64,000 nucleotides of DNA from Eledone cirrhosa (taxonomy: Eukaryota): NCBI GenBank assembly GCA_964016885.1, contig OZ024747.1:63426001-63490000 (forward strand), given 5' to 3'. Shown in pieces: positions 9,101-63,831 of the stretch; position 1 is the first letter of the stretch; the number at the start of each line of letters is the position of its first letter. Position numbers and translations under genes: made by a program. The notes under the pieces were generated by a model, which was not told where the DNA came from, did no database searches, and saw nothing but the letters and a program-made list of their open reading frames with translations.

Positions 9101-9232
9101 AAGAAAGTGTGGTAAGAAACCAGGTGACCATAACGCACCACTGTACTTGATACTTAGGGTAGTAGAGTGGGTAATAGGAAAAGAGTCAGGACCCCGATGG
9201 CTGAGCTCCAGCCTTTTCGACAGCTAGATCCG
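9101..9232 (-). mobile_element. Truncated P2 copy between (TA)n and (CA)n
   Basis: The reverse complement aligns with about 59315-59445. Confidence 0.7.
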
Positions 9233-10452
9233 AACACACACACACACATATGATGGGATTCTTCAGTTTCCCTTTACGAAATTTCATTCATGAGGCATTT
9301 GTCAACTGAAGGCTATACTAGAAAACAATTGCTTTATGCCTCACACACCAGGATGGAACCCAGAAATATATTGTTGCAGAACAAATTTCTTAACCACACA
9401 GTCAGGCCGACATATCTTTCCACTAAATCATTGATCGATAAAAAAGAGTTTATCATACATTATAAAATACTGAAATCTTCCAAGTCTTGTGAAATATTCT
9501 ACTGATTTTAGTTGAATTAAATATTAAGTAATTATTCAAATTAAGTATAATAATTTTAGTAATTAAGAACATAAATTAGATAAAATTGGAGCATCATGTA
9601 TGATGTGTTTCTTATTTGAAAATTTTCTGTAGATATAATCAAAGATATAACTCAATTTCTGTAGCAAGTAACAGATTATATATGTGTGTGTGTGTGTATA
9701 TATATATGTGTGTGTGTGTATATATATATATATGTGTGTGTGTGTATATAATATATATATAATATATATAATGTGTATATAATTTATATATATATATAAT
9801 ATATATATATATATAATATATATACATATATACATATGTGTGTGTGTGTGTATATACATACATATATATATATTATATACATACATATATACATATATAT
9901 ATGTGTGTGTGTGTATGTATATATATATATAATATAATATATATATTACTGTACTTGTAACTCAGTTGTTAGCAAGCAGAGTAATTTCATTTTAGTTTTA
10001 GTATAAGTTAAAATCTGAAAGTATTCATTTCTATCTTTCAGAAATGATTATGAAATATGTTGATGAATATATGATTAGTAGTAAACTTAATTACCGAAAA
10101 AACATTTAAAACAAATGTTTTTACATTCATTTCAAAAAGAATGGAAAACACATAGCACTCATGTTGACACTCAGACCTATACATAGACATATTGACAAAA
10201 ACACAGACACACACACACAGGCACAGACACAGTTATATTAACATACATCAGATCTGCCAACCTCTAAAGACCCAAATGTGGAGTACCATGAAAAAAAGTG
10301 TCCCAAAATGGAGAGAAATGAGCCACAGTGGGGAGATTTTACATAATGAAAGCTATACCCATTTTCACAAAGATATACATCTCTCACCCACCCCAAAGTG
10401 GGTGGGTGATCTCCCCATCAGGTGGACAGGGAGAGTTACAGGTATGCATCTT

Positions 10453-10795
10453 CATCATCATCATCATCATCATTTTACGTCCACTTTTCCCTGCTTGCAA
10501 GGGTGGGACGGGAACTGATTCTGGCTTGATTTCTACACCTGGATGCCCTTCCTAACACCAACCTCATTTACAGTGAGTGCTGGGTGCTTTTTTGTCGTGG
10601 CACCTCCACGACCACTTTGCAGTGGAATGATAAGGATCTCAGTCCCTATCATCTCATTTCTACAGCTGAGTAAACTGGAGCAATGTGAAATAAAGTGTCT
10701 TGCTCAAGGAAACAGCACATCACCCGGTCTGAGAATTGAACTCACAACCTTTCGATTGCAAAGACAATACTCTAACCACTAAGCCATGTGCCTCC
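10453..10795 (-). mobile_element. tRNA-derived SINE family A (tRNA head, CORE-like body, RTE tail)
   Basis: Minus: GGAGGCACATGGCTTAGTGG (A box)...GAGTTCAATTC (B box), then CCTTGAGCAAGACACTT core, then an RTE-like 3' tail with (ATG)n. Confidence 0.9.
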
Positions 10796-11686
10796 ATATA
10801 TACACATTTGTATGAAAGCACATATTACTAAAAGGCATATTTGTGTGTGTGTGTGAGTGTGTGTATGTGCATTTATGTGTGGATGTGTTTGTTTCTGATG
10901 AACAATATTATTTATTCTGTAGTATCTACTTTGTTATAAAATACATTTTAACATTGGTTATCTACAGAGTGTCCCAGTTGTCAGAAAATATTAATCTCTA
11001 TCATGACATTGGGTATTCATTCTAGCAACTGTCAACACTAAGTATATATATACTTACTTAATATACCATGATAGAGAGACATTCATATGAGTGAGACTCA
11101 TATTTTAGTCTCTCTGACTTATGCTCCTCTAAATAGAGTTTCTACAGTATCCATTTATATATATATATATAAACTTAAGAAAACAAAGAGTGGACAAGAC
11201 AATGAACGAAAAACAATTTTTTAAGTGGAAACCTTAAAAAGTTTTTTTTTTATCTATGTAACTCCTGAGTCATCGGCCATTGAGGTGGACTTTGGTAGTT
11301 TTGACCCCTAATATATGTTGTCATCATAATCATTATCATCACCACTACATTTTAATGCCTACCTTTCATAGTTACATGTGCTACATGGATTGTCATGTTA
11401 TGAGGCTAAACTGGTCAAATGATATCCTCTTCATATGAACCATTTTTGGCTTAATGACCATCTTAATGCCAATCATCTTAACTTACACACACACACGTAT
11501 ATCAATACATACATGTATCACTGGCATCTCCATTTTTCATATAACATTTACAAGAACTCAATTTATTTTATATCAGTAAGAAAATTATATGTATATATAT
11601 GTGTGTGTATGTGTGTATACATGTGTGTGTATATATATATATGTGTATGGGTATATATATATATATATGTATATATATATATATAT

Positions 11687-11887
11687 TTATTAAAATAACA
11701 GATTAAAGTTTAAGCAAAGAATCGCTGCTTTCACCCTTAACCGTTAAGGGTGAAAGCAGCGATTCTTTGCTTAAACTTTAATCTGTTATTTTATTAAATA
11801 TTTGCCCTACGGTTCTTATATATCTGATATATATTTGTCCTTATCGAGCCCTCTTTGGATTTTAGTCGTCAAATTTATTATTATTAC
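11687..11887 (+). mobile_element. Foldback short element in (TA)n (family P1)
   Basis: Near-perfect palindrome of about 55-bp arms centred on CCG at 11741-11743, plus an about 85-bp unique tail. Homologous to 26501-26725, about 56180-56248 and 63288-63402. Confidence 0.75.
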
Positions 11888-12957
11888 TATATATATATAT
11901 ATATATATATATATATGTGTGTGTGTACATATATATATATATATATAATTATCTTGTTATCTTGCTGTGTGTGTGTATAAGTATGTGTGTGTGTGTATTT
12001 CAATTAATTTATTGAAGTTGCATTTGCACAAAGGCAACACAGTTGAATTATATGAGGTAAGTCTCTATACACTCAAGATTCAAGAAATGCATTCTTTGTT
12101 TCAGAGGGGACTCTTAATCTATTGAAAAGAAAAACCAGGAATAATACTTTAGACGGTGTGTTTGTCTTTTACGGTAGACAATAACCACTACAACAAATAG
12201 TAAGGAAAAAAAAATTAACCAGGCTGTAATAGTTTCTGATGAACCAACTTTTAGTACAGTCACAGTTACATATTCACATTAACAGTAATTGCATGTCCAA
12301 TTCTGACTGGAGTATCTTTCCCAGCAGTTCAATTTGGCTCTTTCAGATATCGCTCCTTGCCACTATAGTAGAACAGTGGCTATACAGTATCCCATCACTT
12401 TAAAGAGGAAGGTCGGATTACATTTTTGAGGGGGTATTTCATTGTGTTAGTAATGCGTTATTCTTTCAGACTCCAATCAAGCTCTCAAACTATTAGAATG
12501 TTGGGCTTGAAATCGTGAGGTTGTGAGTTCGATTCTTGGACCTGGTGATGTGTTGTATCCTTGAGCAAGACACTTTATTTCACATTGCTCCTGTTTATTC
12601 AGCTGTAGAAATTAGTTGTGACGTCACTGGTACCAAGCTGTATCAGCCTTTGCTTTTCCCTTGGACAACATCAGTGCCATGGAGAGGGGGAAGCTTAATT
12701 AAAATGTCTGGCATTTGACTTTTGAAAAGATAATGCAAAATAAAATTTAAAAACATTGATAGCCTTTACAAAAATGATTACTGAAGGAGTAATGGTGCAA
12801 ATTGTGAGTACCATTTGGAAAAATATTGTTATATTTGGAGAGGGTCATGTTGTCTTAATATTCCAATGATAATAATAATAAAATTCACTTCAGTATTTCT
12901 TTATATTTCTATAAATAATATAGCTGGCATTGATTGACCAACAGTTAAAAATATAAA

Positions 12958-61647: not shown

Positions 61648-61705
61648 ATACCTGATGATGTCACCGGATTCATACTGAATCCGGTCACTGAAATGATCAC
61701 AGTAT
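61648..61705 (+). ncRNA. Hammerhead-like motif with long stem II, cleavage triplet mutated
   Basis: ATAC-CTGATGA-TGTC-ACCGGATTCA(TAC)TGAATCCGGT-CACT-GAAA-TGATCA-CA-GTAT, inside the (TA)n-flanked insert 61516-61752. Confidence 0.6.
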
Positions 61706-61765
61706 AATAAACCTTTTAAGGAATTACACCAGTCCAGCCTCCTGTTATTTTATAATATATATATA

Positions 61766-61958
61766 TAATTGTTTCTACTTTTGGCACAAGGCCAGCAATT
61801 ATCCCAGTGCATTACTGGTACTTTATTTTATCGACCCCGTAAGGATGAAAGGCAAAGTTAACCTAGGTGGGATTTGAACTCAGAATGGCAAGGGCCGTAA
61901 CTCTATGCATCAAAGCATGGCGTCCAACCCTCTACCGATACTGCCAATTCACCGCCCT
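61766..61958 (-). mobile_element. SINE family B, full length
   Basis: Reverse complement of the family B consensus. Confidence 0.9.
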
Positions 61959-61972
61959 CATTATATATATAT

Positions 61973-62432
61973 AAATTGGAGGGAAAAGTTTAAAAGCACA
62001 ACGAAAGTTGACAAAGCATGAAAGTGGTGTTTGTAAAATGATTTTCTAAACAGCTGCATGTATGTAGATGCATGTATGTTCCAAATACTGCAAATGTCAA
62101 TGTGAATATATGTTACAATGTCAATATATATATATATATATATATATATATATATCCAACTGTTGCTTGCAGGGAAATCATATGTTAAATGGTGATGATA
62201 ATGATGTCTATAGAAAATATCTATCTTATACATGCGCACATAGGTAGCATAGGTTCACATATATCTAGCTCTCACTTATTTTGACATTGTAACATATATT
62301 CACATTGACATTTGCAGTATTTGGAACATACATGCATCTACATACATGCAGCTGTTTAGAAAATCATTTTACAAACACCACTTTCATGCTTTGTCAACTT
62401 TCGTTGTGCTTTTAAACTTTTCCCTCCAATTT
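61973..62432. repeat. 152-bp inverted duplication (61973-62124 and 62281-62432)
   Basis: The arms appear to be exact reverse complements by eye. The left copy is flanked on both sides by (TA)n. Confidence 0.95.
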
Positions 62433-63831
62433 CTATGCTTTTCTATAATCTTGATTTCTTCTGATATAACCTCTCTACTCAGTCCCTTCATAAACCAAAC
62501 CTTATGCTATATTGTTCACATAATTTCCAGATCTTGGAGTTCCCACATTTCCCATTAAGTTTCAAAGTATGTTTAGCTGAAGAAGAAAGGTTTCATGTTT
62601 AAAACCTGAAGAAATCTCAGTGAAATTGTACTCACATTTGTTTACTTATTGCGTAAAGTGGGAAAAGATACAATAGATAATGCTATGCAAAGGCATTAGT
62701 TTCAGATAACTGTTGCTTAAGGAAGATTTTCACAGTACAAGTTTAAAAGCTTTATTGATAGCATAATGTATTGATGTCCTGTTACTGTGTATCTCTGAAT
62801 ATATCTGCTTAGAAAGATTACTTGATCATTAAATTGTTGTGAATATTTTTTTCTAACATAGCTTCATTGTTTTCATCACAATTCAATATCATCATCATCA
62901 TCATCTGTCCACTTTGTAATCTGTCATGTGTTGGTTGAGTTGTCATGGTTCAAGACTAGACAGGCTGGAGAATCACATCATGATCATTCAATTTTGATGT
63001 TGTTTCAACAGCTGGCTGCTCATCCCAACACCAACCACTTTAGAGTGTGCTTTTCATGAATTCAACACTCCAACTTTACCTACTGTGTGTGTGTATGTAT
63101 CTATATATGTATACACACGCACACATAATACACACACATATATATGCATGCATACATGGTTCCGTAACTCCTGAAGGAGTCATAGTGGCACCATATAGAC
63201 AAATGTTACTAGGGCATTTTTAAATCTGGTGACACCCAATCCTCTCCAAAGAAAGATAGAGAGTGAGTGAATGGAAGTATATATATAATGATAATAAATG
63301 TGAAGACTAAAATCCAGTGAGGGCTCGATAAGGATTATATATATATAAAATATATATAAACCCATAGAGTTTCTTTGCTTAAACTTTAATCTGTTCTTAT
63401 AATCATCATCATCATTATTTTACGTCCGCTCCCACAGAGCATTTTTACGTCTGCTCCCACAGAGCATTTTTATCATTATCATCATCACCACTTAATGTCT
63501 ATTTTCCATGCTAGCACGAGTTAGAGTTGTCCCATTGTGAGACAAGTCAGATTGTGTGACCATGTCTTTTTCATACAAGACTAATTCTGGCTTGGTTTCT
63601 ATGGTGGGATGCCCTTCCTAATACCATATTTATAGCATGGACTCGGTGCTTTTTATGGTGGCACCAAGATGACCAACTGACAGGTTGTATAGGGTACATT
63701 TTCATTGTATCACCATCACAGTCACCTTACAAGATGGATATTTCACAGGAACACCACACTTTTGAATACTCATATTGTGCTACGATTACTTCCTAGTTTG
63801 TTATACTTAGAGAATTGTGGTTACTCCAAAA

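What the first reader, a model, noticed from the sequence alone, without database searches (positions are those of the whole stretch)
9101..63402. Guild of short hammerhead-bearing inserts colonising (TA)n microsatellites
Seen: more than a dozen distinct 50-330 bp inserts sit inside or against (TA)n tracts. Full CUGANGA-stem II-GAAA cores lie at 18202, 26564, 51196, 55839, 60136(-)/60193 and 61652. Decayed cores lie at 24262(-), 42975(-), 50849(-) and about 18500(-). They fall into several unrelated families. Established: Penelope-like retroelements carry minimal type I hammerheads with palindromic stem III in their pseudo-LTRs and often have inverted terminal segments. Inference: these are termini or non-autonomous derivatives of many PLE families sharing (TA)n as a target. 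That would make roughly one ribozyme-like motif per 6 kb, hidden in DNA normally masked as simple repeat.
Basis: partly seen in the sequence, partly recalled or inferred. Interest (0 to 1): 0.85.

Follow-up and report, generated by a model that had tools for sequence, protein, structure and literature searches.

The report
Twin hairpins set Penelope retrotransposon ends
The inserts are truncated 3' ends of many Penelope-like jumping genes, a kind already known to carry hammerhead ribozymes and land in TA repeats, but in most families traced here the copies end about 7 bases upstream of a conserved bulged hairpin, present twice per unit in five families, which likely tells the reverse transcriptase where to start.

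Summary
About 20 inserts of at least 12 families sit at (TA)n tracts, and each family searched has hundreds to thousands of candidate copies. They are 3' termini of 5'-truncated, often folded-back Penelope-like elements (PLEs). Five window families link to Hydra-clade endonuclease or RT frames, and one links to a Neptune-type frame. Hammerheads in PLE ends and (TA)n targeting are published. Corrections: the core at 26564 is a fold-back junction artefact, most cores are not minimal, and only 1 of 135 copy starts lies at the predicted cut. The new part lies downstream. Hydra-type families end at two discrete TA sites. Each site lies 5-9 nt upstream of a covarying hairpin with a U-led 2-nt bulge. 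Predicting a second hairpin behind the far end succeeded in four families (J, B, F, I) and failed in one (E). A 2.1-kb non-coding family keeps the ribozyme and both hairpins. The hairpins likely position internal priming, which would explain the PLE 'tail'; this is untested. Many hammerheads also have an enlarged stem II or an altered core.

The parts
9101..9235 (-). Family J terminus (Hydra clade): 3' half of hammerhead, decayed hairpin 1, tail to the far end
   Evidence: 84-85% to J copies over 127-128 nt; match to 59320-59445
11687..11887 (+). Family B terminus (Hydra clade): fold-back centred in the stem II loop, inverted arm to the near end, sense arm with tail
18126..18328 (+). Family C terminus; minimal type I hammerhead at 18198-18233; no coding link found
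18387..18514 (-). Family H relative: 3' half of hammerhead plus tail, decayed
   Evidence: 73-80% to L038 and L107
24152..24370 (-). Family G terminus (Hydra-type EN upstream in other copies); core at 24268, stem III decayed here; domain II 41-42 nt
26439..26466 (-). Short piece resembling the near end of family I
   Evidence: read by eye against 50724-50762; not searched
26500..26724 (+). Family B terminus; the apparent core at 26564 is the centre of the fold-back
26725..26810 (-). Family O1 piece, cut off just behind its core at 26733 by the B copy
   Evidence: 85-90% to L040, L139, L103
26940..27030 (-). Family C 3' end without the ribozyme
   Evidence: 87-93% to C copies
42919..43105 (+). 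Family H fold-back: inverted arm holds the decayed core near 42975(-); sense arm runs through decayed hairpin 1 to the far end
50724..50899 (-). Family I terminus (Hydra clade); core decayed here, complete in other copies; 60-nt domain II
50998..51315 (+). Family A terminus (Neptune-type PLE); minimal hammerhead at 51194-51225 with 2-bp stem I; single 3' end; no hairpin
51365..51505 (-). Family H relative with tail and partial fold-back
   Evidence: 83-93% over 44-53 nt
54016..54068 (+). Family M2: 3' half of a hammerhead up to the near end
   Evidence: 88-91% to L129 and L110
55830..56064 (+). Family D2 terminus; small hammerhead at 55836-55875 with imperfect stem III; sibling family D1 is linked to RT and EN
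56135..56249 (+). Decayed family B terminus
   Evidence: 84-86% to B copies
57472..57679 (-). Family Lx fold-back terminus with decayed hairpin 1; 5' half of ribozyme not identified
59221..59448 (+). Family J fold-back terminus with tail; 94% to the intact tandem J unit
59377..59403 (+). Intact hairpin 1 (RCUC stem, inner stem, U-led 2-nt bulge, GAGY, RCU) 8 nt behind the near end of J
60004..60334 (+). Family E inverted pair (Hydra-type EN upstream in L228); complete hammerhead at 60148-60057 on the minus arm, 61-nt domain II
61515..61754 (+). Family F terminus: short inverted far end, then sense arm with hammerhead 61648-61705 to the near end; the family unit is 2.1 kb and non-coding
63288..63403 (-). 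Decayed family B tail and near-end region

Best explanation
These inserts are the 3' ends of 5'-truncated Penelope-like retrotransposons, mostly Hydra clade, whose copies stop at one of two TA sites lying 5-9 nt upstream of a conserved bulged hairpin that likely binds the element's protein and would set where reverse transcription starts. Shown: the tandem unit reads ORF, 3' region, hammerhead, near end, hairpin 1, far end, hairpin 2, start codon. Inferred: the endonuclease nicks a genomic (TA)n tract. The protein, held on a hairpin of a read-through RNA, pairs the DNA end with a UA just upstream and copies 5'-ward. Priming at hairpin 1 gives the short end. Priming at hairpin 2 gives the end with the 70-125 nt 'tail'. 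Copying often stops early, in B and J commonly inside the ribozyme, and the cDNA folds back, which gives the palindromic inserts. The template is the uncleaved RNA. The hammerheads are under selection for fold but their activity is untested.
For: Coding links: A (L203, RT-EN-terminus collinear), B (L207), I (L208-210), J (L212, L196), E (L228); G (L170 with L174). Hydra motifs (R-W, DKT, YRDD, CxCX5C) in J and Y frames of 717 and 800 aa match the definition in PMC8557442 section 11. Two discrete ends: B 42 junctions at -9/-5 and 39 at +84 of 107 TA-joined copies; J 39 at -8 and 32 at +72 of 80; Y 9 at -7 and 7 at +83/84 of 23; the other TA dinucleotides in between are little used. Hairpin scan: 110 unique hits in 0.93 Mb against 2-6 in 10 shuffles. 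Across 27 hairpins the outer pair is A-U 16 or G-C 11 and the first inner pair is U-A 15, C-G 11 or G-C 1. Prediction test, where only the 5' arm was in the pattern: J 386 matches against 0 reversed controls, 3' arm exact in 17 of 20 fetched; B 504 matches, 7 of 10; F 5 matches, 4 of 5; I 5 matches, 3 of 5. Non-coding F keeps the ribozyme and both hairpins. G-U pairs in the inner stem favour the sense strand. The same shape is visible by eye in four published Hydra consensus sequences from coral, sea cucumber and copepod. Internal initiation at two sites that bound the tail was shown in vitro for a Poseidon element (PMC11167929).
Against: No binding or priming was tested. In context the hairpins are not the minimum-energy fold of J, Y or the two window tails. 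The prediction failed for E (1 match, no hairpin). Twelve of the 27 hairpins (O1, R1 and ten unnamed) plus family F's internal copy were first found by a descriptor that demands pairing, so part of the pair count is circular. Families A and D1 also end on (TA)n without this hairpin, and D1 has two ends, so the hairpin is not needed for tails in all PLEs. The published octopus Hydra consensus shows no hairpin at its listed 3' end. The junction samples include copies fetched by queries on the same termini. Pfam and PDB sequence searches found nothing for the J frame, and Pfam nothing for the Y frame, so clade assignment rests on motifs. C, D2, H, Lx, M2 and O1 are not linked to a coding frame.
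Confidence: 0.78

Rival explanations
1. The motif is read as DNA. The GIY-YIG endonuclease recognises the two half-sites in the double-stranded or folded-back intermediate and cuts 5-9 bp upstream, so the two ends are resolution cuts and not priming sites.
For: PMC8557442 ascribes tails to endonuclease resolution. PMC11167929 notes that the D. virilis tail was needed for EN recognition. Inverted arms nearly always stop at the near end. The RNA fold is not the energy minimum.
Against: The inner stem covaries while the loop runs from about 2 to 50 nt, and it uses G-U pairs. A double-stranded site would not need this. In vitro work on a PLE maps tail ends to RT start sites.
Confidence: 0.22
2. 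The inserts are small non-autonomous elements (retrozyme- or MITE-like) that amplify as fixed units.
For: B copies fetched with the palindrome as query share one layout. F is a non-coding 2.1-kb unit. C has no coding link in 20 loci. bioRxiv 10.64898/2026.07.22.740005 derives retrozymes from PLEs.
Against: A tail-only query gives B copies with many different 5' junctions. A copies extend to RT and EN. 5' ends spread over hundreds of bases.
Confidence: 0.12
3. The elements create the (TA)n tracts, by telomerase-like repeated copying of the UA, and do not only target them.
For: A TA starts within -9 to -5 of 26 of 27 hairpins. PLE RTs are the sister group of telomerase (PMC8557442 abstract). Nearly all ends carry tracts.
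Against: A search for host repeats split by a terminus with new TA on both sides gave 7 candidates and none showed this (a weak test). Unrelated clades (A, D1, Hydra) share the tracts.
Confidence: 0.08
4. Hammerhead self-cleavage makes the template ends, so the short inserts are copies of cleavage products.
For: Complete folds are kept in many families with compensatory changes.
Against: 1 of 135 incidental copies starts within 3 nt of the predicted cut. PMC11167929 found cleavage dispensable in vitro.
Confidence: 0.04

Closest known systems
Hydra-clade Penelope-like elements (Craig et al. 2021, PMC8557442; section 11, passages and supplement parts 2 and 53 read)
   Same: C-terminal GIY-YIG without CCHH, CxCX5C linker, DKT, R-W motif, (TA)n insertion, 3' hammerhead often with U-U or G-U closing stem II; one octopus family is already listed.
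   Different: Units of 3.5-3.9 kb against under 3 kb. Domain II is over 26 nt in 14 of 23 multi-copy clusters, against at most about 26 nt in the 26 published Hydra rows. U3-A8 and U4A cores occur. The twin hairpins are not mentioned in the passages read.
Minimal hammerheads of metazoan PLEs (Cervera and De la Pena 2014, PMC4209133; parts 1-2 of 4 read)
   Same: A and C are minimal type I motifs with an extra base after A9 and a palindromic stem III. Dispersed single motifs from truncated PLEs, opposite-strand pairs and the U3-A8 core are all described there.
   Different: Most families here have 8-12 nt palindromic or monomeric stem III and a long stem II. A family-wide U4A core is not described in the parts read.
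Poseidon element PAc of Anolis (Frangieh et al. 2024, PMC11167929; parts 1-2 of 4 read, supplements searched)
   Same: Internal initiation at two sites that bound the tail, AT-rich target, ribozyme cleavage not needed.
   Different: There the starts lie in an AC-rich stem-loop without homology to the target, 30-40 nt apart. Here the ends lie at a TA 5-9 nt upstream of two copies of one conserved hairpin, 70-125 nt apart.
Non-LTR retrozymes (bioRxiv 10.64898/2026.07.22.740005, part 1 of 5 read)
   Same: Family F is a non-coding, hammerhead-bearing PLE derivative seen in partial tandem.
   Different: The F unit is 2.1 kb, above the 1000-nt period limit of that study's search. It inserts with PLE-type ends. 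Circular RNA was not tested.
Twister-sister-like minimal ribozymes (PMC11620745, passages read)
   Same: Two stems around an internal interruption.
   Different: They need a 5-by-6 internal loop with a CA cleavage site. The hairpin here has a one-sided 2-nt bulge.

Membership tests
Penelope-like element (EN+) | One frame with RT and C-terminal GIY-YIG endonuclease | tested here: met
   J 717 aa and Y 800 aa with YRDD and EN motifs; A pieces hit RVT_1 (1.8e-5) and GIY-YIG (0.0045), both below Pfam cut-offs
Penelope-like element (EN+) | Tandem or partial tandem units (pseudo-LTR) | tested here: met
   J period about 3.5 kb, Y about 3.9 kb; not seen for A
Penelope-like element (EN+) | 5' truncation, inverted 5' copy, optional tail | tested here: met
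Hydra clade | CxCX5C linker, DKT, R-W motif near the N terminus | tested here: met
   B, I, J, Y; the K of RWK is R or T here; for E and G only EN and RT pieces were seen
Hydra clade | Insertion into (TA)n | tested here: met
   B 107 of 127 and J 80 of 111 copies TA-joined
Hydra clade | Length under 3 kb and canonical small hammerhead | tested here: not met
   Units 3.5-3.9 kb; enlarged or variant hammerheads. These are described as general traits, not diagnostic ones
Hydra clade | Placement in an RT phylogeny with reference Hydra proteins | not tested
   No reference proteins were available as input; J and Y are 37% identical over 799 columns
Neptune/Nematis-type PLE (families A, D1) | DKG motif and CX2-5CxxC linker before the GIY-YIG domain | tested here: met
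   A: both; D1: linker and YVDD; Neptune versus Nematis not resolved
Minimal type I hammerhead (min-HHR) | CUGANGA core, extra base after A9, short palindromic stem III | tested here: met
   Families A and C only; not met by B, E, F, G, H, I, J
Hammerhead ribozyme | Three helices around the conserved core, with compensatory changes | tested here: met
   215 unique hits in 1.23 Mb against 3-9 per shuffle; E/I/L180 alignment 96.8% paired, 4 pairs changed on both sides (three related families only)
Hammerhead ribozyme | Self-cleavage | not testable with these tools
   No assay; no genomic trace of cleaved templates
Non-LTR retrozyme (family F) | Short non-coding tandem unit expressed as circular RNA | tested here: inconclusive
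   Non-coding yes; unit 2.1 kb; RNA not examined
Twister-sister-like ribozyme (for the hairpin) | 5-by-6 internal loop with a CA cleavage site | tested here: not met
   One-sided bulge of 2 nt in 26 of 27 and 1 nt in one

The most novel reading that the evidence does not exclude
Hydra-clade Penelope-like RTs carry a portable RNA address: a bulged hairpin conserved from octopus-type genomes to corals and sea cucumbers. It anchors the enzyme and sets the first copied base about 7 nt upstream at a UA that pairs with the (TA)n primer, in the manner of telomerase template positioning. Two copies per unit explain the Penelope tail, and any RNA bearing the hairpin, such as non-coding family F, can be mobilised.
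Probability: 0.55. Interest if true: 0.78.

Novelty: new variant of a known kind. Interest (0 to 1): 0.58.

Why it matters
The added result gives a concrete, mutable RNA element for an open question: how Penelope-like RTs choose an internal start and why their copies have optional tails. These RTs are the closest transposon relatives of telomerase, so a hairpin-and-distance rule would bear on how template positioning arose. The genome also holds young, intact Hydra elements: 150 of 150 scored hits were 97-100% identical, many with 821-aa open frames. That makes the test practical. The enlarged and core-variant hammerheads would be missed by small-motif descriptors, so published counts are likely low.

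Tried and rejected
Rfam gave no hammerhead among the listed window matches and nothing meaningful for the Y end region. My first idea of a four-way junction in the E/I domain II was dropped: folding and pair counts fit a long bulged rod. Naiad origin was considered for cores with distant halves and rejected for B, I, J, E and G, which have C-terminal Hydra-type ENs. A twister-sister-like reading of the hairpin was rejected. A peak of 5' ends at the cleavage site was not found. New (TA)n at split host repeats was not found. A second hairpin for E was not found, and no tandem continuation for A was found. An automatic alignment of 16 short hairpins misplaced the 5' arms, so it was not used; pairs were counted by anchoring. 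The A junction recount failed on coordinates and was not used. Pfam and PDB searches of Hydra frames were blank. No RNA-seq evidence was obtained, so expression and in vivo cleavage are open. A final uniform re-mapping of all families onto the window and a null for TA adjacency inside the window were not done; the parts list comes and the family searches. Lunse et al. 2017 (PMC5785218) could not be read and may describe some of the hammerhead variants. Literature searches listed no paper on such hairpins or on a U4A core, but cover open-access text only. Supplements of the bioRxiv preprint and figures of all papers were not seen.

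
Full report
Setting. The window is G000:C7:63426001-63490000 in a 3.0-Gb assembly, 34% G+C and dense in (TA)n. It is probably an octopus genome; that rests on my recollection of its SINE-like repeats and was not tested.

Observation. The strict descriptor finds four cores with stem II, and the two with palindromic stem III were never matched in 200 block-wise dinucleotide shuffles. 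The raw seven-base core occurs 39 times against a shuffled mean of 23.8 (maximum 38 of 100). Self-comparison and TA-bounded segments give about 20 inserts. Every insert used as a genome query returned 40 scored matches from 245 to 3469 candidates. For family A, 29 of 29 other fetched copies end directly on (TA)n (read by eye).

What the inserts are. Family A copies run upstream into a GIY-YIG domain and an RT. In L203 the order RT, EN, terminus is collinear, with DKG and a CX4CxxC linker, which is Neptune- or Nematis-type. B, I, J, E and G lead to endonucleases of the CxCX5C type. Intact tandem J units encode 717 aa with R-W, DKT, YRDD, CxCX5C and a GIY-YIG-like motif. These are the Hydra-clade marks given in PMC8557442 section 11, which also reports (TA)n insertion and hammerheads and lists an octopus family. 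A sibling of D links to an RT and a Neptune-type EN. C, H, Lx, M2 and O1 were not linked. F is different: between two ribozymes in L199 lie 2.1 kb with no stop-to-stop frame over 105 aa, and four other F loci continue into the same non-coding sequence.

The ribozymes. Family copies are more complete than the window copies. E, I, F and G have 8-nt palindromic stems III and domains II of 31-61 nt. H and B have monomeric stems III. J has a U3-A8 core in which position 7 varies among subfamilies while the rest is fixed. B has U4A throughout, and the canonical-looking core at 26564 is the centre of a fold-back. Over all loci held at that point (1.23 Mb) a relaxed descriptor gave 215 unique hits against 3-9 per shuffle; it missed the very short A and C motifs. 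Fourteen of 23 multi-copy clusters have a domain II over 26 nt, the largest size in the 26 Hydra rows of File S2. That table came from a descriptor search, so its limit may be technical. E, I and L180 share one domain II sequence that folds as a bulged rod; most of its pairs are invariant, so the rod itself has little covariation support. Of 135 incidental copies, one starts within 3 nt of the predicted cut, while 15 of 39 B and 22 of 36 J copies start inside the ribozyme. I infer that uncleaved RNA is copied and that the ribozyme region stalls the RT and favours fold-back in these two families.

The hairpins. The tails of B, E, F, G, H, I, J and M2 share a motif: an RCUC arm, an inner stem with a loop of about 2-50 nt, a bulge that begins with U, a GAGY arm, then RCU. 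A scan gave 110 unique hits in 25 sequence clusters against 2-6 in shuffles (the loci were enriched for these families by my queries). Among 27 distinct hairpins the outer pair switches between A-U and G-C and the inner pairs take three to six types. Twelve of them were first found by the descriptor, so that part is circular. Of 208 TA-joined ends mapped near a hairpin, 154 have the tract starting at -9 to -5 (the anchor excludes ends further upstream). Mapping from the ribozyme onward shows two main ends in B, E, J and Y, and smaller samples for F, G and I, with many unused TA sites between them.

Prediction test. If the hairpin sets the near end, a second copy should follow the far end in read-through copies. 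This was seen first in a young family, Y, where the unit reads ribozyme, hairpin, hairpin, start codon, 800-aa frame. I then searched the genome with each far end plus only the 5' arm. J gave 386 matches and 0 reversed controls; 17 of 20 fetched carry the exact 3' arm, one has a substitution and two lack it, and the ORF start follows. B gave 504 matches, 7 of 10 with the arm. F gave 5 matches, 4 of 5. I gave 5 matches, 3 of 5 plus one substituted. E gave one chance match. In each positive family a TA starts 6-8 nt upstream of the second hairpin. By eye, the same shape stands in published consensus sequences Hydra-2_Amil, Hydra-1_Ajap (twice, at the 5' end), Hydra-2_Ajap and, less well, Hydra-1_Crog, but not at the listed end of Hydra-1_Obim.

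Mechanism. Shown: unit layout, two ends, fixed distance, covariation, retention in a non-coding family. Established for another PLE: RT starts internally at two sites that bound the tail, and ribozyme cleavage is dispensable (PMC11167929). Inferred: the Hydra protein binds the hairpin on RNA and primes at the upstream UA with the nicked (TA)n. Against it: ViennaRNA does not return the hairpins as the minimum-energy fold in context, and A and D1 reach (TA)n without the motif. The main rival is recognition as DNA by the endonuclease. I put the PLE-terminus identity at about 0.95 and the RNA-positioning role at about 0.55-0.6.

What is known. PMC4209133 already reports thousands of dispersed minimal hammerheads from truncated PLEs, opposite-strand pairs and the U3-A8 core. 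PMC8557442 reports (TA)n preference, inverted copies and tails. A 2026 octopus repeat annotation counts Penelope-like families but has no mention of hammerheads (PMC13282606, passages). Nine open-access searches listed nothing on the twin hairpins; subscription papers, Repbase notes and PMC5785218 were not seen. An earlier scan note from another genome (e1-7882047) reached the same ordinary verdict for the ribozyme-bearing ends and is not independent evidence.

Verdict. The guild is real and is known biology. The twin hairpin and its distance rule are a new, testable detail of the Hydra clade, and the enlarged or core-variant ribozymes are a lesser addition.

Noticed in passing
G000, e.g. L284:1572-5735 and L263: A very young Hydra-clade family (Y): 150 of 150 scored hits 97-100% identical over 146 aa, many with 821-aa open frames, in tandem arrays of about 3.9 kb. 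Not present in the window.
   Followed up: partly
L313, L314: Family J also has intact 717-aa frames in tandem arrays with a 3.5-kb period.
   Followed up: partly
L126 minus strand near 2462; L199:2279: Family F carries two more, degenerate hairpin copies inside its non-coding body, about 0.8 and 1.1 kb upstream of the ribozyme. Whether copies end there was not tested.
   Followed up: no
L180:801-899: A third family shares the E/I domain II sequence although its stems I and III differ.
   Followed up: partly
L109:1355-1400 and its 740-nt insert: A hairpin-bearing element splits a SINE-like repeat without long TA tracts at its edges; related clusters at L096:746-787 and L190:1886-1929 have no ribozyme link shown.
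   Followed up: no
window 29553-29633: TA-adjacent insert with one relative (L041, 83%) and a GAAA-centred hairpin; family unresolved.
   Followed up: no
window 11053-11155, 26265-26420, 53747-53880: TA-bounded segments with no match in the loci held; not searched genome-wide.
   Followed up: no
window 61969-62128 and 62277-62436: 160-bp inverted repeat, 99% complementary, 148 nt apart.
   Followed up: no
window 51570-51659: Inverted repeat of about 27 nt per arm around a central (TA)n tract.
   Followed up: no
window 24821-26041 and 43271-44497: Two diverged copies (75-80%) of a longer repeat in opposite orientation, probably LINE fragments; not translated.
   Followed up: no
window 10470-10769, 42052-42203, 21475-21669, 42653-42889 and copies: Several abundant SINE-like families, many also next to TA tracts; a weak tRNA-like match at 58147-58210.
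   Followed up: no
window 14804-15151, 22507-22751, 44670-44901: Tandem arrays with periods of 48, 26 and 112 nt.
   Followed up: no
window 50724-51505 and 26439-27030: Termini of three or four unrelated families are stacked within 0.6-0.8 kb, separated mostly by TA tracts.
   Followed up: partly
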